Shown in pieces: positions 34,052 through 59,510 of a stretch of 64,000 bases of DNA. A program made the position numbers and the translations under genes. The DNA is taken from positions 17,918,001-17,982,000 of the forward strand of contig OZ231126.1 of NCBI GenBank assembly GCA_965153355.1, written 5' to 3'. Under the pieces are notes generated by a model. That model made no database searches and had not been told where the DNA came from. It saw nothing but the letters and a program-made list of their open reading frames with translations. Position 1 is the first letter of the stretch. Each line of letters begins with the position of its first letter. Source of the DNA: Flaccisagitta enflata (lineage: Eukaryota).

Positions 34052-35231
34052 TAAGAATAGATCAACTGACACTGTGACTTAAAATCATCGTCATTTCTTA
34101 ACGAATCAAGCAAAAATGGCCCGATTTGTCTTGAAAAAAGGATATTAGTCTCAGTTTACGTATTTCTGTGGAAAAATACCAAATCATTGAAATTTAAGAG
34201 GATAATCTAGGTTTTCTTTTGATTTTTTTTAAGTTTGAGCAGGTTTCAAATGCATTTAAGGACCAAAATTTCTTATAAAATGGTGAAAAACTAAGGTGAT
34301 ACAAATTAAGTGTCAATTATTGACTATACATGACTTATTTGGTCATTCAAGCTCATAATGTGAAATGTTAATGAAGGTTCCTAGGTGCAAAATCGCTCAA
34401 AAATGTGTTTTTTATGCAAATTTTGCTTAAATTTCACCAAATTTCAAAAACATGTGGACGATAAACCGCTAGACCCATCATGATGAAATTTTGCATGAAA
34501 AAATGGTAGGTTATGTGCTTTTAGACAAAACCAACCGGATTTTCTAAAAATGAATACTTTATGCACAATAAAGTTTTTACTGGTAACAATTGCTTTTGAA
34601 AGCAGGGTATCAATCAGAGTGATTCAAAATTCCTCCCAGATTATTTTTCTTTCAATGATCACAAACATCTCTTTCCTCGTTTAAAACATTGCTGGCTTAC
34701 ATCATTGGGTCGCGTGCTACTAGAGTTCCATCATGTAGTAAATAAACAACTTCTTTTTTTTTTTCATGAAGATGAAAACTATATACACGCCTGCAAGTAG
34801 GGCTAAATTAACAATTCATTTGTCATTTATAAATCAAGCTTGCTAGACTATGAGTCATTTTTGTTTGGGTGCAGGTTGCATTGGGTATGCGCGGACAGAA
34901 AGCACCCTTGAGCGTAAGTTGCCTTCTTGGGAATTTTTTTCAGAAATGAACTATCACGTCTGGAAGCAGAAATATTCTGTTGGGGGGCGTTTCCTGTAAG
35001 TCTTAACCTGGTGCAACCTTTAAACGTTCTTGATCAAATTATTGGTCACCGGAAACCAAATAAAGTCAAAGAATCGAGTCATTGCGAGTCCTTTTTTCTT
35101 TATTTTGGTTTTTGTCTTTTTGGTCACTTGGTCCTAGGTCACTTCGACCACTTTGTTGTACGTAACAAGTATCTACATCTTGTTGTTGTTGTTGTTGATG
35201 ATGATGATGATGATGATGATGATGCTATTTC

Positions 35232-35265
<34 letters not shown>

Positions 35266-38596: not shown

Positions 38597-40697
38597 CTTC
38601 TGTGTACAAGACCTTGACATCATCTTGAAGCCAATGTTCAGTTTTGCAAACATGCATCTTGTGCTTCCTAAGCACTTGTTCGACCACCAATTCAGCCACC
38701 AACTGAAGCAAATTGCCAGCAAGAAATAAAAACAAAAACAGAAGTAAGAGGAAGTTTGAGGAAGTCTTTGGTCCGTGAAGCGCATCTACCAAACTGAGAT
38801 CGCCAAAATCGCTTGAGAATTCAGGAACTTTATTTTTGGAGACTGTAGTCCTATTCTCAAGGCTTTAATCCCCACCTCAAGGCTTAAATCCCTGTCTCAA
38901 GGCTTAAATCTCAGCCTTGAACTCAAATCCTAGCTTCAACAAACAAATAAACGAATGAAAGTCCCCCTGTGTTCTACAGGACATCCTCACCTTTGGGGCC
39001 GCTGCCCTGCTGACCATCACCTACAATCACAAACATACTAAGCAGGGCAAGTGGGCAACATGTATCGCTGACCACATATTGCCCTTGGGTAAAAGTGTCT
39101 GGAAAGTGATGACTACCCAGCATAAGGTAATGAGGTATAACTAGTCATCCAAGATCGCATGGTCCATGGTACTGATGCCCTTCTTGGAGTGATAGCTGAA
39201 GAAGTGAGTGGGCAGGGCAGCGTCCCCAAAGGGCCGTGTCCTGTAGGACATAGGGTGAATTTCCGCTGTCCTTAGAGGGGCATATTGAGGTCTTAGTAGC
39301 AACTTTCCATGTTATTCAGCCAAATTTACCATGTTATTCAATGGGAATTTTGCATTTTTCACAATTTTCCTTAATTTTCTATGTTATTCAATGGGAAATA
39401 TGCAAGTTTTTACTATTTTGTAAATTTTTCATGTTTAGTTTAGCTTCAAATTTGTCGCTAAAACAATTTTTTTTGACAAGGGGTTTCAGTGTTTTTCACA
39501 GCTGTCTCTGACTGTATCTTGGTACCCAGAACTCAATTTTTGTCTGTTAGTGATATAAGAACCTGAGAATTGATATTTTCTTGCATTTTTCGTGGTAAAA
39601 TTCAAGTAGGTTTATGATGTCTCATTATCAAAAATTTCCACGTCAAAACCAGTCATAATCTTTCATAGCATTTTTGGCATGACACTTTCTGAGAGCCAGG
39701 CACTTTCTCGGGCACACAATTATGCCCCAATTTGTAAAAATACTATATTTTAGCTACCTCTGTGTCAAATTCCAGCCCAACGACTCCATTATTTCTATCA
39801 ATTTTGCTCATTTTGCTAGTTCGTTTAATTATGTGAGAGGTGTTATTTACTGTACTTTGTGAGATCAATGTACCACTATTTTTGAACCAAATGAGTTGAA
39901 ATTCATGAGATTCTGAAAGAGTTTTGAAAGCTCTTTCAGATGACACCAACCAAATTTGTATGCTTTAAAGTATTTAAAATCATTAACAATCAAAGTTGTA
40001 TGGTTCTATCGCCCAAGAAATCAATATTTACTGTACTTTGGGAGATCACTGTACTGCCATTTTTTAACGAAATGAGTTGAAATCCATGAGATTCTGAAAG
40101 AGTTTTGAAAGATCTTTCAGATGAGATCAACCATATTTTTTTTCTCCTCAGCATAAAAAAGTTATAAGCAATTGAAGTTGAATGGTTCATACCCCAAAAT
40201 TACCAACAACCATCAACACTTTGATTTGATCATTTTTTGTTCATTTTCCAAAATGAATCCAATTTTTTTGCTGAAACGCACTAGTTAACACCTATTCTTG
40301 CCAAAAAAATCTACTTTTTTGATTTTTGTCATTTTTTACAACCACCTCCATCAGGAGGTGAATTTTGGCAATTTGGCCCCCCTTACCCCCACCCCATGGG
40401 TGACCCCTCCCACCCATCCACTCTACCACCTACCTTAGTGTATTCTGACTCCATTAAGCCAAAAAAGTATGTTGGGTGGTGAAAATTTGACTGTTTTTGC
40501 CATTTTGCAAGTTAGAGGGTCCATAGTCAAATTTGGCCATTTTAGGCCATTTTTGGCCAACTAAAACTCATCCGAGCACTAATATGGTTAGACAAAAAGT
40601 CCCACTGATGGTTCCCCCTCATTATATACATCATGTACCGTACCCAAACTTTTGGCACAGGCGTTTTTAACATTTTTTGCAATTCCTGAACACACCA
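36523..40697. mobile_element. Mutator/Foldback-type non-autonomous element with ~850-bp TIRs
   Basis: TIRs at about 36523-37380 and 39846-40697 (TGGTGTGTTCAGGAATTGC...); 9-bp TSD CTGTCACAC at 36514-36522 and 40698-40706; internal ~180-bp tandem units and GGACCCGTTTT repeats; no transposase ORF. Confidence 0.85.
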
Positions 40698-41842
40698 CTG
40701 TCACACTTGTGTCACACTATGATTCATACTATGCCACGGCATAGTAACATAAGTGACGAAAAATTCATCTTCATGATGGGAAAGAAAATCAAATTCTGTA
40801 CTTGCACCTAAAATTTCAACTCTTAACTCCAAATTGTTTGGTCACAGTGAAATTTCAAAGATGATCACTACAAAAAAAAGAATTGAATTGTAACGCTCGC
40901 CGACCAAGCTTCGTAGTTAATTCTTTGTTTCCACACAGCGCTTCTCACACAAATGCGTGATGCTATTAAGTTTTATTTTGGTAAAATTTCACAAAATCCA
41001 AATTTGCATATCTCAGGAACTATTTGAGTTAGCCCAATGAAATTTTGCATGGTTGGTATCTGGATCAAGAGACTCCTTTGCCTAAATTCTGATGCGACCT
41101 AGAGAATGTTGAGCAGTCCAACCAGACCAACCAGCCTACCAGATAAAAAAATGAAAAAATGGCATAATCTCTAAAATAATTGACCGATCTGGTTGAAATA
41201 TTGCATGAAGCTTCCTTTAAAGATTCCTCGTCACTGGCATAAAAAAGAGCATGGGGAATTTTTTTTCTTCCAACAGCCTACCCAGCTAGAAATGCTACTT
41301 ATAGAGATCTTTTTAAAAAACTAAAAAAATTCAAAAAAATTTCAGAAACATGATCACACATGTTTGCTTGAAAGTTATCAATAAGAATTTCCCTGTCATA
41401 TTGATTTCGTGATTGTATTTAGCTAAATTTTCTTGTAATAAAACTGCCAACAATATCTATTTAAGCCTAATTTGCATGAAAAATGAGCTTACTTAAGAAA
41501 ATCCAAGTATAGATTCATATGTAAGAATAGGTGAGCTACATGATGACATATGGTTTTGTTCAATTTTCAAACATGTGAAATTGACGAATTTCATCCCGTC
41601 CGCGGTCGGCTTAGCGTGACACTAGTCTGTATCGTTGATCCGATATCCAGTGTGCAACACCGAGACAGATTGCCGAGACAAACAGACAGACCCACAGATA
41701 GACATATCACCGAGACAGACCGCCGAGACACAATGGGCATATTCAAGGCTGAGGATTAGTAAGAAGGAGAAGAAAGGGAGAGGTCGAGGAGAGACAATGG
41801 AGAGAAACAAGTCGTCCAAGGTTTCCACATGGTCAGCGGTAC

Positions 41843-44800
41843 TTTTTTTTTTTTTTGTTATCCAACGTTGAAGATCGCTTTAAAGTAAATCGTCCAGGGA
41901 AGAAATAGAGTCAGAAAGAGAGACGTGACTTGGGGATGCCGAGTCATAAGATGAAGACGAAGGAATTGAAAGCGTGGAAAAGAGCAAATGAGAAGAGGAA
42001 CCGCCCGGCGAAGGTGGAGGTGCCGGAGGCGGCCGTCCGTCTTGATGGAGTTGCGGCGGCGGCGGCTGGAAAGGAGGCGGCAACGAGTCGAAGGCCGGAT
42101 GCGTCGCTAAGAAGTTGGCAACGCGGTCAGGCGACGACCACATATCCTCAGGGGATAATTGCGTTGGACGCGCAGGGCAGTCGAAGAGGTGCTGCACAGT
42201 TTGCGGATCCAGATCGCATTCAGGACACGTATCATCGTCAGCTCTACCAATGCGATGTTGATAGTCTTTCAATTTTGCACAGAAGCCAGAGCGCAATTGC
42301 GACAAGACGGCGCGAGTTGGGCGTGGAAGAAATTTCTCTCTGTAACTTATTTGTGGAGCAGCACTATTCAGGACACGGTTGGGCTCTTGATTTCTTATGG
42401 CCTCGGTTACGATATCAGTATGGATCGATTTGATCGTCGAGCCGTAGGTACCTGGAGCAACCACCCCATTGGCATCCAGGTAAGGGGCGACAATATTATC
42501 GACCTTGGACTTCAATGTTTCCTTCATATTCCGCCTACCTGGGGGGCGCATCACAACCTCGTGTGAAGGGTGGCGAGGTTGGAGGCATTTAGCCAAGAAC
42601 TGCGATGAAAGGAGACGAAGATGGTCATTGACTCGTAACTCTTTAGCCTCTGCATGGATGTGATCAACGGAAGCCATCTGGTGGCAGCCCAGCGCCAAGC
42701 GCAGGGCCCGATTTTGGATCCGCTGGAGCCTTTTGATAGACGTGTCTGAGTAGTTTGGATATACTATTGGGGCCGCATAATCAAAGACTGATCTAATGTA
42801 GGTCTTGTAGGTGGCCAAGAGGCACTCCTTATCTTTGCCAAACTGCGTGTCTGAAAGAGCCCTTAATAAGTTGATCCTAGAAGCGGCCTTACGCGCCACG
42901 GCTGCAGCATGAGAAGAAAACGAAAATGTTGGGTCCAAGGTAACCCCAAGCAGCTTAGGATTCTTTTCTGTTGGTATTTGCGAGCCGTCCAGGGAGACGT
43001 CCAATTGAAGGTTGACTTGTTTCGTCCATGGAGTGAAGAGAGTCACTGATGATTTAGGAGCCGAAATCGACATGCCATTATTCTCAGCCCAAACATTCAT
43101 TTCCTGAATGGAACGATTTAAGACGTTTTCAATTGACCCAACATCAGAAGACGAGCTGGCAGAGTGATAGTCATCTGCAAAGGCTTCATTCACTTCCGCA
43201 ACGCTGGGCTCCAAATCGGCGCAGAAAAAGTTGAACAGAAGCGGGCTTATAACGGAACCTTGAGGCACACCAAGTTTTGATTTCCTCCACTGCGACGTGA
43301 CACCTTGATAAGCAACTCTAACCCTGCGGTCCCTCAAATAGGCAGTCAACCACCTCTTGTAGTTGGGATGAAGATCAGTTCCATTCACCTTTTTGAGCAG
43401 TTTATCCCTTTCAATGACATCGAAGGCCTTAGACAGGTCCACCATGAGGAGACCAGTTCTAGAAGCGGGTTTCGGTTGATTGAAGCCATCAGCAATGGAG
43501 GTCACCAATGGCAGAAGCGCGGTCACCGTAGACCGGCTCGACCGGAAGCCGTGCTGGGCTTGGTTGGGCTTCAGGGAGGCTGCAAGCGAGGGATACATGA
43601 GCTTCTCCAAGATCTTGGCTTCCAGGCATAAAAGGGAAATCGGACGGTAGCTATTTCCTTCATCTAAAGGTTTACCGGGTTTTGGCACCGGAATGATGGT
43701 TGCCGAGCGCCAAATGGCGGGAATATCCGCTTTCCTGACTGAAAGATTGTACAGACGAGTAAGAAAACGAACGCCGTGCGGCCCCAGATTCTTGAGATGA
43801 AGGGCATTTAAACCATTCGGGCCGATAGCCGTCGAACTTTTGGCAGATTTAATGGCATCTGCTGTCATCTGAGCCGTGAAAGGGGAAAAAGAGTTGTCGA
43901 GCTTGTTGTCTATTTTCATAGCGCGATAAGTTTGACGAGACTCTTTAGAATTCTTGTGAGGTCGAACATTGGCGTATTGCTTGCAGAATTGGTCAGCAAT
44001 ATTGACTCGCTTGGTATGGACCTTGTTCCCAAACCTGATGGGCTGGTTTGGTGCTTGATTTGTCCTCTTCCCTGACAGAGACTTCATAAGATTCCAGAAT
44101 CGCCTTGGGTTCGACTTCCGGTCGGCATCCATCACTTTATCCATCCACCGCTGCCGGTTGGCTGTGGCAATTGATAAAGCAACTTGTCGATTAAGCTCAG
44201 GAAGCTGAGGATCGTTTGGGTCTCTTCTACGAACTTCATCACGATGGCGAGCGAGACGAGTTGACTCAGGATCAAGACCAGGTGAGTGATTCTTGAAAAA
44301 CCCAGAAGGAACAAAACGAGCCGAAGCCTTTTGCATGATTCTGCGCCAAACTTTCTCTCCCTGAGAGCATGACGAAGGTAGAGGAGTTGAAGCAAATTGA
44401 GATTCTGTGTACTGCTTAAACCCTTGCCAATCTGCCTAATGATAACTAAAGTAAGTTTTAGAAGTGCGATTTGTTGGAATGTCATTGTCGAAGATGACGG
44501 AGTGAGGGTAGTGGTCGGAATTGAGAGTGGAGACGACGGACCAGTTGAGACTAGTGGCGATGTTGATAGGCGCAAAAACGACGTCTGGCGAAGAGTGAGA
44601 AGAAGGACGAGTGGCGACATCTGGGTCGTTGAGGACGATGTAGTTAGCACGGTCAACTTCCTCAGCGATAGCATCACCGCGATTGTCACTATTTCCAATA
44701 GACCACAAATCGTCGTGGGCGTTGATATCCCCAACAACAACTGTGGAGCCGTCGAGAAGAGGCGAGATGGAGGCGACGTAGTTCCGCGGACTGCCATCCG

Positions 44801-45426
44801 GATTTCGAATGGAAGATTGAGGCGGCACGTAAATGTTCGCGATGGTAATGTCGACGTTGGCTATTTTAGTTTTGATGAGAATCGATTCAGCGACACCATC
44901 CTGTAGAGGCGATGGTATTTCGACGTAGGAGAGAGAGTGATGAATTAATGTCACCAGACCACCACCACCACCCGTCGGCCGGTCCCGGCGAACAGCAACA
45001 TAGTCCTGGAACACCGGCGTTCGAATATTTGGACCTAGCTTTGATTCCTGAATGCAGGCTACTTTGACCTGCCGTCGCGAAAGAAAGTCGGCCAATTCTA
45101 CAGCTGAGCTCCGGATTCCGTTACAGTTCCATCCTAGAATACCGATGGGGGCGTGGAGGAATTTTGACGTGGTCCTGGATTGATGCTGACGTTGCCGATG
45201 ACGAGAAGGAAGAAAATGACGGAGGAGACGAGGAGAGAGAGAAGAGACGACGGGCGATTTAATTTTCGGGGGGAGGAGATAAACCGGCGTTTACGGACGG
45301 ACGCCGCCGCCGGCCACGACGTCCGCCTTAAAAAGGGAGACGATCTTCTGTTGGTTGTTGTGTATGCAAATTCGGCCCCCCGAGGGGGGATCCAATCCAC
45401 CACGGAAAGGCTGCATTTTTGGATTG
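41843..45426 (-). mobile_element. Full-length non-LTR retrotransposon, Ingi/Vingi-like (single ORF APE-RT-zinc finger, no RNase H), 3584 bp
   Basis: TSD GGTCAGCGGTAC at 41831-41842 and 45427-45438; poly(A) tail (T14 at 41843-41856); 3'UTR about 23 nt. APE motifs WNCNG, CIQESKL, NIYVPP, GDINAH, SSPDV, SDH. RT motifs YRPISLL, QHGFR, DLSKAFD, GVPQGSVISPLLF, FADD, LLGVTLD. C-terminal QLRSG...CPEC...HLFDCP. Clade assignment is from recalled motif style only. Confidence 0.93.
41880..45250 (-). pseudogene. Retrotransposon polyprotein (2A-like/APE/RT/zf) disrupted by one frameshift and one nonsense codon
   Basis: ORFs 44436..45095 and 41880..44336 are in the same frame, separated only by TAG at 44436-44438 (YH*ADW, where K-ADW is typical). 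The NPGP leader is one base out of frame with APE near 45135-45165. Confidence 0.88.
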
Positions 45427-45427
45427 G
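45364..45427 (-). ncRNA. Candidate HDV-like self-cleaving ribozyme at the retrotransposon 5' end
   Basis: (C)CAAUCC-AAAA-AUGCA-GCC-UUUCCGU-GGU-GGAUUG-GAU-CCCCC-CUCG-GGGGG-CCGAAUU-UGCAU. Proposed pairings: P1 CAAUCC/GGAUUG, P2 AUGCA/UGCAU, P3 GCC/GGU with a 7-nt loop, P4 hairpin, J4/2 CGAA. Confidence 0.55.
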
Positions 45428-45617
45428 GTCAGCGGTACTAGATGCCCTGCTTGGAGTGATTAGCTGAAGAAGTGGAGTGAGAGCAGGGCAGCGGCCCGCA
45501 GCGGCCCTAAAGGGCCGATGTCCTGTAGGACACAGGGGTGAATTTCCATGCGTCCTGAGAGGGCATATTTGAGGCCTTAGTATAAATTTTCCATGATATT
45601 CAATGACAATTTTGCAC

Positions 45618-46359
45618 TTTTTGGGCAGCGGCCCCAAAGGGGACAAAGTCCTGTAGAACACAGGGGGACTTTCGTTCGTTCGTCCGTTTGTTCGTTGTTT
45701 GTTTGTCCCCCCCCCTCACCAGGCCCTTCAGGCCTCAAATCTGGCCTCTGAGACCTCAAATCTGGCCTCTCAGGCCTCAAATCCAGCCTCACTGCCCTCA
45801 AATCCAGCCTCTCAGGCCTCAAATACAGCCTCTCAGGCCTTAAATCCAACCTCTCAGGCCTCAAACCTGGCCTCTCAGGCCTTAAATTAGGCTACTCAGG
45901 CCTCAAATCCAAATTCTCAGGCCTCAAACCTGGCTTCTCAAGCCTCAAATTAGGTCTCTCAGGCCTCAAATAAGGCCTCTCAGACCTCAAATAAGGCCTC
46001 TCAGGCCTCAAATTAGGCCTCTCAGGCCTCAAATCAGCTATCTAAGCCTCAATCTATTGCTCTCAGGCTTCAAATCAATCCTCTGACCTTTCAAGCTTTA
46101 ATCCAGCTCTCTCAAGCATCAAGTCAGCCCTCTCAAGCTTTAGATTGGCATTCTGAAGCCTCACATCAGCCTTCTTAGACCTCAGTTTAGGCTCTTAAAG
46201 GTCTTCAGTAAGCTGACGAACAAACAAAAGTCCCCCTGTGTTCTACAGGACTTTGTCCCCTTCAGGGCCGCTGCCCTGCTTCCCCTAACTCCAATTCACA
46301 ATCACTGAAAGCAGGGCAACGGGTATCGCTGACCACATATTGCCCTTGGGCGACCTGTT
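45618..46359 (+). mobile_element. HINE-like element (GGGCAGCGGCCC family) with ~20-bp central tandem repeats
   Basis: ~60-bp inverted repeats (45623-45684 / 46215-46276) enclose (CTCTCAGGCCTCAAAT...)n; an 80-nt 3' tail contains GTATCGCTGACC and GCCCTTGGGC and ends CTGTT; inserted in a T run. Confidence 0.85.
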
Positions 46360-46684
46360 CAATTTTTTGTCAATTTGCCATGTTATTTAATGGGAATTTT
46401 ACATTTTTCTTATTTTCATCAATTTCCCATGTTATTCAATGGGAAACATGCATTTTTTTGGTTTTTTGTAACTTTTCCATGTTATTCAATGGGGAATTTG
46501 CATTTTGACAATTTCCCATGTTTTCTGATGGAAATTTGAGGCTTTAGAAGCTTCGGGGGGGATGTACGGACGGACGAACGGACGGACGGACGTATGGAAA
46601 TTTACCCCTGTGTCCTACAGGACAGGGCCCTTTGGGGCCACTGCCCAAAAAGGAAGTGTGAATAGAGAATGGGGGAGAAAAGTC

Positions 46685-57930: not shown

Positions 57931-59510
57931 TTTAAATGGATGAACAAAAAGGAGCTAACATTTCGACTCTCTCACTTGATTGCCGCCAATGCTGTGGGTT
58001 GGACCGTGACCACCCACTATGCGCCAAAATGATTCAAAATGCACTGTAGGCTCAAAGGTACCAAAATAGATATATAATAAAAGATAAATTTTTTTATAAA
58101 AAGATTAATAAGAAAACAAGTTTTTTATCATTCTATTGATATTTCATACATTGAAAAATATGTTGAAGACATGAAAGTGTCAAAAAAGAAAAATTGTACA
58201 TGATTTTTTAACTCAAAAAGAATGTCGGCAATGATAGCGATGATAGCGACAATGGCGATGATGGCGATGACGGCGATGATGGCGATGATGGCGATGACAG
58301 TGATGACGGTTATGATGGCGATGATGGTGATGATGGTGATGATGCCAATGATAGTGATGACGGCGATGATGGCAGTGATGGCGATGATGTCTTCATCGCC
58401 ATCGTCACCATTGTCGCCATTGTTGCTTTCATCGCCATCATCGCTATCATCGCAATCTTTGACATCATCACCATCATTGCCTTTGTCGCCGTTGTCGCCT
58501 TAGCCGTTGCCGTTGTTGTTATCATTATCTTTGTTAGTCTTTCATATGAATCAAATATAGTATCTGTCAGATAACGCCACAGGTTGGCATAGTCAGCAGA
58601 CTTGAGGCCCAAATCCCTAGAGACTGGAATATGAGCCTTGGCCCAAATCCCAACCCCAAGGCTCAGATTCCAGTCTCAATGGATTTGCGCCTCAAGACTG
58701 AGATTTGGGCTTCGAGGCTGGGATATGGGCCTTCAGGCTGAGATATGGGCCTGGAGGCTGAGGGGAGGGTGGGTACGCAGAAGAAGAAGGAGAAATTCCC
58801 CCATATGTGAAAGCATAGGTCATCGGCCCCTTCAGGGCCGCTGCCCAAAAGGGGGACCAACCGACCAACCGACCAACCGACCAACCGACCAACCGACCAA
58901 CCGACCAACCAACAGACCGACATTGCCAGACCGACATTGCGGGGTGTAGAGTCGCGTAGCACGCGACTAAAAAAAGAGAGAGAGATCAGCAGATCGAGAT
59001 GGAGATGGAGAAGGGAGATGAGCGGAAATCCCTCACTGAATTAGACGCCGTCGCAGCTACTGGACATTAGAAGATAAAGCAGGCCAACAATATCGACTTA
59101 TAGCTTTATTGTCTAGCAAATGCTATGCTGGTTGCTCATAGAATCTTGATAACGACATGGTTGCGATGGCAAGATGCGCAGCATGCTGCTTTATCTTGTA
59201 GTATATGAGCTGACAAATATATGGTTTAGTTGGACCAAACGTCGGTAGGTTGGTGAGTCACAAAGTTTTTTTTCTTGGCATTCACCGCTCCATCACAACC
59301 CCTGTCCGCGACTCAAAGGGTCGGTCTGTCAGCCAGTACTCTGGTCCATCAGTCTGTAACATTTTTAGGTATTTCAAGTCAATGTCAAGTGTGAGCACTT
59401 TTTGTAGGACTGCCCCTTCCCAACTGCCAGCGACTATTGCCCTGTGTTGAGTTGTTTCATCTCTTTACTAGACCAAAAACGTCCACAAGATCAAGACCCC
59501 TCCTGCCGAG

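What the first reader, a model, noticed from the sequence alone, without database searches (positions are those of the whole stretch)
45364..45427. Candidate HDV-like ribozyme starting exactly at the 5' boundary of a Vingi-like retrotransposon
Seen: the first ~63 nt inside the TSD fold into the nested double-pseudoknot order P1-P2-P3-L3(7 nt, UUUCCGU)-P3'-P1'-P4-CGAA-P2'. Established: HDV-like ribozymes process the 5' ends of R2, RTE and trypanosome L1Tc/ingi elements and can support cap-independent translation. Inference: this family self-cleaves out of read-through transcripts, so it would need no promoter of its own. Deviations from consensus: the first base is not G, L3 has U where C is usual, and two extra U precede P2'. 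It could be a variant or a damaged copy.
Basis: partly seen in the sequence, partly recalled or inferred. Interest (0 to 1): 0.75.

Follow-up and report, generated by a model that had tools for sequence, protein, structure and literature searches.

The report
Self-cutting RNA at retrotransposon start
The first 64 bases of a jumping gene fold like the hepatitis-delta self-cutting RNA, a known way for such elements to trim themselves out of longer host transcripts; this is a probable new example whose cutting has not been tested.

Summary
On the minus strand, 45427 to 45364 has the full HDV-like order P1-P2-P3-L3-P3'-P1'-P4-CGAA-P2'. It begins at the first base of a 3.6-kb APE+RT non-LTR retrotransposon bounded by a perfect 12-nt target-site duplication, an A14 tail and a paralogous empty site.

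- **Rfam:** the HDV-F-prausnitzii model aligns end to end from exactly 45427. It scores 24.8 bits, below the gathering score of 44, and has E 2.2 in a blind scan of the whole window.
- **Strict descriptor (written after seeing the candidate):** it hits only this site in the window. It hit 2 times in 150 shuffled windows.
- **No nucleotide copies could be fetched.** Two related proteins read through the same region. They keep the L3/P3'/P1' core as "LSVVD" and force compensatory changes in P1.
- **The "deviations" fit a known type.** C at +1 and a weak A-U P1.1 match published, active L1Tc/ingi-type ribozymes.
- **Element layout:** like L1Tc, it has an ORF open from base 1, no early AUG, a 2A-like NPGP motif, a 23-nt 3' UTR and a poly(A) tail.

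Verdict: probably a genuine HDV-like 5'-processing ribozyme and a new member of a known kind. Cleavage, expression and the Vingi label remain untested.

The parts
45364..45427 (-). Candidate HDV-like ribozyme, 64 nt. Predicted cleavage is 5' of C at 45427.
   Evidence: Sequence. Rfam RF02682 full-length alignment, 24.8 bits. Only strict-descriptor hit in the window. Shuffle controls.
45421..45427 (-). P1 5' strand CCAAUCC, pairing with 45392-45398 (GGAUUGG).
   Evidence: Back-translation of P0001 forces G-C at pair 2-35 where the window has C-G.
45399..45411 (-). P3 (GCC/GGU) enclosing L3 UUUCCGU. U20 is at 45408, C24 at 45404, G25 at 45403.
   Evidence: This stretch is read as LSVVD and is shared with P0001/P0124.
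45376..45389 (-). P4 hairpin CCCCC(CUCG)GGGGG, preceded by J1/4 AU at 45390-45391. A37 can pair with U22, giving a one-pair P1.1.
45369..45375 (-). J4/2 CCGAAUU. The candidate catalytic C is at 45374.
   Evidence: In the alignment, CCGAA lines up with the model's GCUAAG.
45364..45368 (-). P2 3' strand UGCAU, pairing with AUGCA at 45412-45416.
45427..45438 (.). 5' copy of the 12-nt target-site duplication (GGTCAGCGGTAC on the + strand).
   Evidence: Paralogous uninterrupted site at about 39150-39175.
41831..41842 (.). 3' copy of the target-site duplication.
41843..41856 (-). A14 tail, preceded by a 23-nt 3' UTR (41857-41879) and the TAA stop (41880-41882).
45170..45427 (-). Reading frame open from element base 1. 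It runs through the ribozyme, a conserved leader (PF[LF].R..PA[AT]A) and a 2A-like motif LLVIGNVSINPGP (45208-45170). It contains no AUG.
44436..45290 (-). APE endonuclease part of the ORF. The window has G5 at 45147-45151 where all four DNA contigs have G6. An in-frame TAG lies at 44436-44438.
   Evidence: Pfam PF14529 and PF03372. Indel table..
41880..44435 (-). Reverse transcriptase plus a C-terminal Cys/His motif. No RNase H was detected.
   Evidence: Pfam RVT_1, E 2.1e-29, the only family found. Translation.

Best explanation
[quoted passage not shown] It has C at +1, C-G pairs at the base of P1, and a weak A-U P1.1. It forms the very 5' end of a compact single-ORF APE+RT non-LTR retrotransposon.

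Proposed mechanism:
1. The element is transcribed as part of a longer RNA from whatever lies upstream (inferred).
2. The ribozyme folds into the nested double pseudoknot. The cytidine at 45374 (the CGAA in J4/2) catalyses scission just 5' of C45427 (inferred from family knowledge).
3. The released RNA starts at the element's first base, so a full-length copy regains its ribozyme at each insertion. This matches the DNA boundary, which is shown.
4. The reading frame is open from base 1 and has no AUG for about 360 codons (shown). Translation would therefore start without a normal cap/AUG context, or within the co-transcript. The 2A-like NPGP motif would then free the APE-RT protein from the leader (inferred by analogy with L1Tc and R2).

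This particular copy may be weakened or dead. It has U rather than A at J1/4 position 38, an in-frame TAG, and one G fewer in a homopolymer than the reads show.
For: 1. **Full architecture with the core residues.** P1 has 7 bp, P3 3 bp, and L3 7 nt with U20, C24 and G25. P4 and CGAA are present, and P2 has 5 bp. R2 work names the L3 C and G and the J4/2 C as the conserved or catalytic residues (PMC3774820 passages).
2. **An independent, pre-existing model.** Rfam RF02682 aligns 1-74 of 74 positions to 45427-45362, with E 0.027 for 801 nt against all families. It is the only ribozyme family among the 37 sub-threshold matches in the whole window.
3. **Strict descriptor.** One hit in the window, against 2 hits in 150 shuffled windows and 1 in 1500 shuffled elements.
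4. **Position.** Model position 1 equals the first base inside or at the TSD. A paralogous empty site at about 39150-39175 confirms the insertion boundaries. So do repeat copies in the runs whose homology starts or ends at 45427 (X4 loose end, X1 record 4). An independent copy with 72 differences and 4 gaps over 528 nt stops matching at 45427 (X2 record 9).
5. **Relatives seen only as proteins.**
   - P0001 and P0124 (64% identical RT) read through the region as ..RVQRARLSVVDPK.. against the window's PIQKCSLSVVDW... The shared LSVVD corresponds to L3/P3'/P1' in the window; the flanking residues differ.
   - In the ungapped register, all 12 P1, P3 and P1.1 pairs are possible and 4 are forced. 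Pair 2-35 changes from C-G to G-C, and pair 4-33 from A-U to G-Y. Slid controls have 2-6 impossible pairs.
   - Random residues at the six non-anchor codons are compatible in 334 of 20,000 trials.
   - Both P0001 and P0111 have Lys (AAR) right after P1'. This gives AA opposite U21 and U22, a two-pair A-U P1.1.
6. **Published precedent for the odd features.** C1 is the mapped cleavage product of L1Tc/ingi-clade ribozymes, which also have reversed G-C pairs in P1 and a different P1.1 (PMC4035085 passages). An active ribozyme with a single-pair P1.1 is described in PMC3185411.
7. **L1Tc-like element layout.** There is a short leader, a 2A-like motif, APE and RT, then a 23-nt 3' UTR and poly(A). 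L1Tc has a leader, 2A and a 21-nt 3' UTR plus poly(A) (PMC3185411 section 12).
Against: - Below Rfam's gathering score (24.8 against 44). No match at gathering threshold. In a blind scan of the whole window against all families the E-value is 2.2, and the hit ranks 21st of 37 by bits. No other HDV-like Rfam family matched at E up to 10.
- No nucleotide sequence of any other copy could be examined, so there is no direct covariation test. The peptide-derived test rests on one relative lineage (P0001/P0124) and one partial one (P0111).
- P0001 and P0124 share at least 13 more codons upstream of the predicted cleavage site. In that lineage the motif may therefore not be terminal, or both contigs may come from one locus.
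- In this copy P1.1 is a single A-U pair, and two U separate CGAA from P2'.
- 45427 is also the last base of the TSD, so the first base cannot be assigned with certainty.
- Folding energy is ordinary, z = -0.87.
- In the roughly 6% sample read from one poly(A) RNA run, no read lay on 44900-45466. There is thus no sign of expression or of a 5' end.
- The closest locus with DNA in hand, L001 (36% identity), shows no supported HDV-like motif.
- The strict descriptor was written after the candidate had been seen.
Confidence: 0.7

Rival explanations
1. Chance look-alike. The stretch is only the start of a coding leader or 5' UTR. The HDV-like arrangement is a coincidence helped by a C6/G6 palindrome and a short AUGCA palindrome.
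For: - The Rfam score is sub-threshold and E is 2.2 in the blind whole-window scan.
- Folding energy is not unusual.
- A loose descriptor gives 30 start positions in the window, nearly all clearly junk.
- The frame is open across the motif, and the leader downstream is conserved as protein.
Against: - The strict descriptor is unique in the window and rare in shuffles.
- The motif starts at the insertion boundary to within 1 nt out of 128,000 possible start positions.
- Conservation is RNA-like: the L3/P3' core is kept while the P1 flanks change in a compensatory way.
Confidence: 0.12
2. The fold is real and conserved, but its main job is not self-cleavage. As DNA it could act as an internal promoter. 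As RNA it could be a translation-initiation or protein-binding structure, with cleavage weak or lost in this lineage.
For: - In L1Tc the same 77 nt act as both promoter and ribozyme, and HDV-like folds are proposed to support cap-independent translation (PMC3185411 passages; PMC6765202 passages).
- The ORF has no AUG and is open from base 1.
- P0001 and P0124 carry shared sequence upstream of the predicted cut.
- P1.1 is weak in this copy.
Against: - The catalytic-core residues (J4/2 CGAA, L3 C and G) are all present.
- The DNA 5' end coincides with the predicted cut site in two independent copies. This is what RNA processing at that site predicts.
Confidence: 0.1
3. The family has a working ribozyme, but this copy is a decayed relic that no longer cleaves.
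For: - There is an in-frame TAG at 44436-44438.
- The window has G5 where all four DNA contigs read G6, which breaks the frame.
- J1/4 is AU here, but AA is implied in P0001 and P0111.
- No RNA reads were found.
Against: - The TSDs are perfect (12 of 12) and the A14 tail is intact, so the insertion is young.
- All helices are intact, with no mismatch in P1, P2 or P4.
- A single-pair P1.1 is active in L1TcRz (PMC3185411).
- The homopolymer difference may be an assembly error.
Confidence: 0.3

Closest known systems
L1TcRz / Pr77 ribozymes of the trypanosomatid L1Tc/ingi clade (PMC3185411, PMC4035085)
   Same: - An HDV-like fold occupies the first 64-77 nt of an APE-type, poly(A)-tailed, TSD-flanked non-LTR element.
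- C is the +1 nucleotide, and C-G pairs sit at the base of P1.
- P1.1 has one or two pairs.
- The ORF has a short leader followed by a 2A-type motif.
- The 3' UTR is about 21-23 nt.
   Different: - The host is not a trypanosomatid. The window has 40% G+C, and the flanking repeat is also found in marine metagenome runs.
- No RNase H domain was found.
- No sequence-level comparison with Pr77 could be made.
- The 2A-like motif departs from the D(V/I)ExNPGP consensus (GNVSINPGP).
- Promoter activity and cleavage are untested.
R2 / R4 / Dong 5' ribozymes (PMC3774820)
   Same: - They process the 5' end out of a co-transcript.
- The L3 C and G and the J4/2 C are conserved.
- 5' junctions form with microhomology.
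   Different: - R2 elements have a restriction-like endonuclease and are specific to rDNA.
- Many R2 ribozymes cut upstream in the 28S sequence, have very large J1/2 loops, and have G-type cleavage-site pairs.
HDV-like ribozymes of Baggins (LOA) and RTE elements (reported by Ruminski et al. 2011; seen here only as summarised in PMC6765202)
   Same: They are promoter-less APE-type LINEs with a terminal HDV-like ribozyme, transcribed from host or neighbouring promoters.
   Different: They belong to different clades. The original paper is not held, so no feature-by-feature comparison was possible.
Rfam RF02682, HDV ribozyme from Faecalibacterium prausnitzii
   Same: It is the best-matching curated model. 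It has the same helix order, a 7-nt L3 (UCUACGU against UUUCCGU), and C-(U/G)-AA in J4/2.
   Different: It is a bacterial family. The score of 24.8 is below its gathering score of 44. The J1/4 GG that forms a G-C P1.1 is absent here.

Membership tests
HDV-like self-cleaving ribozymes | Nested double-pseudoknot order P1-P2-P3-L3-P3'-P1'-(P1.1)-P4-J4/2-P2', with a 7-bp P1 and a 3-bp P3. | tested here: met
   Sequence reading. The MFE fold gives P1, P3 and P4. The strict descriptor hit includes P2.
HDV-like self-cleaving ribozymes | A catalytic cytidine in J4/2, followed by purines. | tested here: met
   C at 45374 within CCGAA. It aligns to the model's J4/2. Its catalytic role is not tested.
HDV-like self-cleaving ribozymes | Conserved L3 residues: the C and G named for R2 ribozymes. 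| tested here: met
   L3 is UUUCCGU, with C24 and G25. PMC3774820 passages.
HDV-like self-cleaving ribozymes | A P1.1 pseudoknot between L3 and J1/4, usually two G-C pairs. | tested here: inconclusive
   Only U22-A37 can pair in the window. AA after P1' in P0001 and P0111 would give two A-U pairs. A single-pair P1.1 is known in active L1TcRz.
HDV-like self-cleaving ribozymes | A G1-U wobble at the cleavage site, as in the HDV, CPEB3 and R2 type. | tested here: not met
   The pair is C1-G36. L1Tc/ingi-clade ribozymes with a mapped C1 are active (PMC4035085), so this feature does not define the wider family.
HDV-like self-cleaving ribozymes | A score at or above a curated Rfam gathering threshold. 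| tested here: not met
   No match at gathering threshold. RF02682 scores 24.8 against 44.
HDV-like self-cleaving ribozymes | Helices supported by covariation among homologues. | tested here: inconclusive
   No nucleotide homologues were obtained. The peptide-derived test on P0001 shows 12 of 12 pairs possible and 4 forced, with two compensatory positions. P4 is uninformative.
HDV-like self-cleaving ribozymes | Mg2+-dependent self-scission that yields a 5'-OH at +1. | not testable with these tools
   No RNA read lay on the element's 5' end in the one run laid.
Retrotransposon 5'-terminal processing ribozyme (R2, L1Tc, Baggins, RTE usage) | The cleavage site coincides with the element's 5' terminus. 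| tested here: met
   The TSD, poly(A) tail and empty site place the boundary at 45427 or 45426. A second copy ends at 45427.
Vingi clade of non-LTR retrotransposons | A compact single ORF with APE and RT and no RNase H (as described in PMC13708176). | tested here: met
   Pfam finds Exo_endo_phos(_2) and RVT_1 only. The element is 3585 nt. The ORF is single once the read-supported G6 is used. Several other clades share this feature.
Vingi clade of non-LTR retrotransposons | RT phylogeny places the element as sister to Ingi, together with named Vingi elements. | not tested
   No named Ingi or Vingi reference sequences were available. Kojima 2011 is not held. The only informatively named homologue is an amphipod 'reverse transcriptase domain' protein.
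2A / StopGo recoding peptides | The motif D(V/I)ExNPGP in the N-terminal part of ORF2. | tested here: inconclusive
   NPGP is present at 45181-45170 in GNVSINPGP, but the D and E positions are N and S. PMC3708506 reports some E-to-S forms as inactive. All 16 relatives with a long N-terminus have (N/H)PGP there.

The most novel reading that the evidence does not exclude
The ribozyme and the 2A-like peptide form one conserved 5' "self-release" cassette. The RNA cuts itself free at base 1, and the protein frees itself from a leader that starts inside the ribozyme and has no AUG. This cassette would be shared between trypanosome L1Tc/ingi elements and a family of elements from marine animals that lack RNase H. 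It would therefore date back to the Ingi/Vingi ancestor. It would also supply the 2A motif and ribozyme that earlier work could not find in 5'-truncated Vingi copies. The same C1, A-U-P1.1 ribozyme type would then be expected in the 5' UTRs of Vingi elements now being used as gene writers.
Probability: 0.3. Interest if true: 0.6.

Novelty: new member of a known kind. Interest (0 to 1): 0.4.

Why it matters
HDV-like ribozymes are an established answer to how promoter-less LINEs obtain a defined 5' end. The published cases seen here are R2, L1Tc/ingi, Baggins and RTE.

A C1-type, A-U-P1.1 example in a non-trypanosomatid element with the L1Tc layout would matter in three ways:
- It would extend the ingi-type ribozyme beyond trypanosomatids.
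- It would support the published remark that the classic search descriptor is too restrictive (PMC4035085).
- It would tie RNA self-processing to AUG-less, 2A-assisted translation in one compact 5' module.

It may also have practical relevance. Vingi-1 elements with their native 5' UTRs are being developed as gene-insertion tools (PMC13708176).

In the one search that paired these terms ('HDV-like', 'ribozyme', 'non-LTR', 'Vingi'), only one paper held all four. Its passages do not link Vingi to a ribozyme. Ruminski 2011 and Kojima 2011 could not be read, so prior description cannot be excluded.

Tried and rejected
- **Whole genome.** None is held, so genomic copies could not be collected. The window holds only one copy of the element.
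- **Related loci.**
  - The metagenome scan kept 80 loci. Only L001 is reasonably close, at 36% identity.
  - The genome-contig scan gave 8 distant loci. The viral-contig scan gave none.
  - L001 has a 2A-like/PHD/APE/RT element. A loose HDV-like arrangement starts at 232 (a run that hit the time limit, so its output is partial).
  - That arrangement is not supported by Rfam, by the single-sequence model R1, or by the strict descriptor. I treat it as inconclusive.
- **Model R1, built from the window sequence alone.** Over 89 sources it found only itself (103.2 bits) and one 11.9-bit match, E 1.7, in L084.
- **Loose descriptor.** It gave 30 start positions in the window, so it is not specific.
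- **Folding-energy z-scores.** Not discriminating.
- **Protein searches for more N-termini that read through the ribozyme.**
  - Only P0001 and P0111 were found.
  - Only P0111 was relevant among the 4 hits from the representative library.
  - Cluster look-up added P0124.
- **P4 hairpins from back-translated peptides.** Uninformative: shuffled peptides did as well in 308 of 500 and 182 of 500 trials.
- **Sequencing runs.**
  - No RNA holder was listed.
  - The one RNA run laid (X13, poly(A), about 6% read) put 302 reads on the stretch. All were only partly on it, and all lay on the upstream repeat.
  - The variant table was cut off before the ribozyme (123 rows not shown). The differences in the X2 copy could therefore not be read, and the single call allowed was already used.
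- **Earlier findings of this scan.** Nothing for this genome or sequence. The word search returned only phage and virus HDV-like cases.
- **Papers not held.** Ruminski 2011 and Kojima 2011.
- **tRNA origin of the flanking repeat.** No tRNA was found.
Full report
**What is at the coordinates**

The feature lies on the minus strand. Read from 45427 down to 45364, and counting n from 45427, the RNA has these parts:
- P1: CCAAUCC (n1-7).
- Spacer: AAAA.
- P2: AUGCA.
- P3: GCC.
- L3: UUUCCGU.
- P3': GGU.
- P1': GGAUUGG.
- J1/4: AU.
- P4: CCCCC-CUCG-GGGGG.
- J4/2: CCGAAUU.
- P2': UGCAU.

This is the order and spacing of an HDV-like nested double pseudoknot. P1 has 7 bp, P3 has 3 bp closing a 7-nt L3, P1' follows P3' directly, and a cytidine followed by GAA sits after P4 (n54, coordinate 45374).

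ViennaRNA returns P1, P3 and P4 as the minimum-energy fold. It does so for the 66-mer and for a 171-nt context with 33 nt upstream and 137 nt downstream. The energy itself is ordinary: z = -0.87, and 38 of 200 shuffles fold at least as well. The C6/G6 run pairs in any arrangement.

**Is it more than chance?**

Three tests bear on this.

1. *Rfam.*
   - At gathering thresholds nothing in the window matches.
   - At relaxed thresholds, HDV-F-prausnitzii (RF02682) aligns over all 74 model positions to 45427-45362. It scores 24.8 bits, and the family's gathering score is 44.
   - E is 0.027 for an 801-nt search against all 4227 families.
   - In a scan of the whole 64-kb window E is 2.2. The match ranks 21st of 37 sub-threshold matches, most of them miRNA-hairpin look-alikes.
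   - Taken blind, it is not significant. As a test of one prior hypothesis it is notable, because dividing 2.2 by 4227 families gives about 5e-4 for this single family (my arithmetic). It is also the only ribozyme family listed.
2. *A loose descriptor of my own.* It gave 30 start positions in the window, so it is useless as evidence.
3. *A strict descriptor.*
   - It requires: P1 of 7 bp with at most one G-U; P3 of 3 bp; L3 of 7-8 nt with CG near its end; P1' abutting P3'; a P4 hairpin within 1-4 nt; C-N-AA within 2 nt after P4; and P2 of at least 5 bp abutting P3.
   - It hits only this site on both strands.
   - It hit 2 times in 150 dinucleotide shuffles of the window, once in 1500 shuffles of the 3607-nt element, and never in the 340,700 bases of the 88 fetched loci.
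   - It was written after I had seen the candidate, so these numbers are optimistic.

**The element and its boundary**

Downstream on the same strand lies an open frame carrying two domains:
- Exo_endo_phos and Exo_endo_phos_2 (44436-45290).
- RVT_1 (41880-44435, E 2.1e-29). No RNase H was found.

The frame ends in TAA, followed by a 23-nt 3' UTR and A14 at 41843-41856.

The 12-mer GGTCAGCGGTAC (+ strand) stands at 41831-41842 and again at 45427-45438. It is a perfect target-site duplication. The insertion lies inside a repeat, and three observations confirm the boundaries:
- A paralogous copy of that repeat at about 39100-39240 runs uninterrupted from the sequence left of the element, through one copy of the target, into the sequence right of it.
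- In public DNA runs this repeat is enormously abundant, while the element is low-copy: 1-3 contigs cover any part of it. Repeat copies lose homology at exactly 45427.
- The consensus of what follows in one marine run is homologous to the window's other flank (X4 loose end at 45427, X1 record 4).

Ribozyme position 1 (C at 45427) is therefore also the last base of the TSD. The element's first base is 45427 or 45426, a one-base microhomology of the kind described for R2 5' junctions (PMC3774820 passages).

An independent copy helps here. A 1353-nt contig of run X2 aligns to 44900-45427 with 72 differences and 4 gaps, and stops matching at 45427 although 30 more letters of the contig follow (record 9). 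Two insertions thus agree on the same first base, which is the predicted cleavage product.

**Comparative evidence**

No whole genome is held, and the window has one copy. The collections gave no close nucleotide relative:
- Metagenome loci: only L001, at 36% identity.
- Genome contigs: 8 distant loci.
- Viral contigs: none.
- A covariance model built from the window sequence alone found only itself.

The variant table from the read lay was cut off before the ribozyme. The differences in the X2 copy could therefore not be read.

Protein data gave an indirect test.
- The RT has 778 relatives with E up to 0.001 among the 8000 candidates scored. Most come from ENA contigs of about 3.6 kb.
- In the window, the frame that starts at element base 1 is open through the ribozyme (PIQKCSLSVVDW...). 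It continues through a leader and a 2A-like motif.
- Two relatives were called far enough upstream to read through the same stretch. P0001 and its cluster-mate P0124 read ...EARVQRARLSVVDPKSAFGRPN.... P0111 starts MVDPKNAGLGRRQ....
- Further searches for such N-termini found no others.

In the window LSVVD is CUU UCC GUG GUG GAU, that is, the last base of P3, all of L3, P3' and the start of P1'. It is conserved, while the residues on both sides are not. That is the pattern described for R2 ribozymes, in which P1.1, P3 and L3 are the conserved part (PMC3774820).

I back-translated P0001 in the ungapped register anchored on LSVVD, with these results:
- All 12 pairs of P1, P3 and P1.1 are possible, and 4 are forced by the amino acids.
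- Pair 2-35 is G-C where the window has C-G. Pair 4-33 is G-Y where the window has A-U.
- Sliding the 3' partners by 1-3 nt gives 2-6 impossible pairs.
- Random residues at the six non-anchor codons are fully compatible in 334 of 20,000 trials, and reach four forced pairs as well in 145.
- Lys (AAR) follows P1' in both P0001 and P0111. This puts AA opposite U21 and U22 of L3, a two-pair A-U P1.1. The window has AU there, which gives one pair.

The same approach says nothing about P4, and I could not place P2 in P0001.

One observation cuts the other way. P0001 and P0124 share at least 13 codons upstream of the predicted cut. Either both contigs come from one locus or precursor, or the motif is not terminal in that lineage.

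**The "deviations" and the closest known system**

Published work on the trypanosomatid L1Tc/ingi clade reports the following:
- Primer-extension stops fall at "the +1 nucleotide (C1)" for several active ribozymes.
- The classic search requirements were "too restrictive" (PMC4035085 passages).
- L1TcRz is active with a single-pair P1.1 (PMC3185411 passages).

The candidate's C1-G36 and C2-G35 pairs and its weak A-U P1.1 fit that type.

The element also resembles L1Tc in layout (PMC3185411 section 12):
- A ribozyme in the first tens of nucleotides.
- A short leader peptide.
- A 2A-type motif before APE.
- A short 3' UTR (21 nt in L1Tc, 23 nt here) followed by poly(A).

It lacks RNase H. A 2026 review gives the absence of RNase H as the difference between Vingi and Ingi (PMC13708176 passages). 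That makes "Vingi-like" reasonable, but other clades also lack RNase H, and I could not run an RT phylogeny with named references.

HDV-like ribozymes at LINE 5' ends are already known for R2, R4/Dong, L1Tc/ingi, Baggins and RTE (PMC6765202 passages; PMC3774820 section 15).

**Translation context**

- The frame from base 1 has no AUG. With the read-supported homopolymer length, the first Met is codon 365.
- All four DNA contigs covering 45146-45151 (three in X1, one in X2) have G6 where the window has G5. With G6 the leader/2A frame continues into ...NPGPRQNSSTPPIGILGWNCNG..., the APE domain.
- One in-frame TAG remains at 44436-44438.
- All 16 of the 120 listed relatives that have more than 40 residues before the WNCNG motif carry (N/H)PGP there.
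- 2A-like motifs in the N-terminal part of ORF2 are published for Ingi, CR1, Crack, Rex1 and L2 elements. They were not found in Vingi, whose copies were 5'-truncated (PMC3708506 passages).
- The motif here (GNVSINPGP) lacks the consensus D and E, so its activity is open.

**Mechanism proposed**

- Shown: the fold, the core residues, the coincidence with the DNA 5' end in two copies, and the AUG-less open frame.
- Inferred: co-transcription from upstream, self-scission 5' of C45427 by the J4/2 cytidine, translation without a normal start, and 2A-type release.

Nothing here shows expression. No RNA holder was listed, and the one poly(A) RNA run laid (about 6% read) put no read on 44900-45466.

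**Verdict**

This is probably a genuine HDV-like 5'-processing ribozyme of the L1Tc/ingi type (confidence about 0.7). It sits in a family for which I found no description in the searches made. I class it as a new member of a known kind.

Its interest is moderate. The principle is established, but an ingi-type ribozyme coupled to a 2A-like leader outside trypanosomatids would be a useful extension. Biochemical cleavage and a nucleotide alignment of other copies are the decisive missing pieces.

Noticed in passing
window 45427-45700 (also about 39100-39240, about 35350, 46265-46334): The element is inserted into a hyper-abundant interspersed repeat. Summed contig word depth reaches 1e6 to 2.5e7 in two DNA runs of the same organism label, and the repeat is also present in marine metagenome runs. 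It contains an internal duplicated unit (45487-45540 and 45627-45670). Poly(A) RNA reads cover 45602-45682. No tRNA-like part was found.
   Followed up: partly
window 45720-46084: A tandem array with a 21-nt period (consensus CAGGCCTCTCAGGCCTCAAAT, 17.4 copies, 77% matches) directly adjoins the abundant repeat. A second array with a 49-50-nt period lies at 46363-46506.
   Followed up: no
window 45147-45151: The window has a run of five G. All four DNA contigs laid over it (three in X1, one in X2) have six. The extra base joins the leader/2A frame to the APE frame. This is a possible homopolymer error in the assembly, or a real difference between individuals.
   Followed up: partly
window 45170-45208 (minus strand): A 2A-like motif LLVIGNVSINPGP lies just upstream of the APE domain. 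All 16 relatives with long N-termini have (N/H)PGP at the same place, several of them followed by a PHD finger. The consensus D and E positions are replaced, so StopGo activity is uncertain.
   Followed up: partly
window 45293-45325 (minus strand): A strong 12-bp G+C-rich hairpin lies inside the conserved leader-coding region, about 100 nt downstream of the ribozyme (seen in the fold). It may bear on translation start or on ribozyme attenuation, as described for L1Tc.
   Followed up: no
L001 232-354: This is the closest locus with DNA (36% identical RT; layout 2A-like/PHD/APE/RT). It shows a loose HDV-like arrangement starting at 232: a 7-bp P1, GGGG/CCCC around UGUCCG, and a CCCAC/GUGGG hairpin. 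Rfam, model R1 and the strict descriptor do not support it.
   Followed up: partly
window 58256-58769 and 35172-35265: Clusters of sub-threshold miRNA-precursor matches lie on both strands (best 42.3 bits, E 2e-5, well below gathering scores). They probably mark long inverted repeats or MITE-like hairpins.
   Followed up: no
window 44436-44438 (minus strand): A single in-frame TAG lies between the APE and RT parts of an otherwise open frame of about 1180 codons, in a copy with perfect TSDs. It lies outside the stretch on which reads were laid, so it was not checked against them.
   Followed up: no
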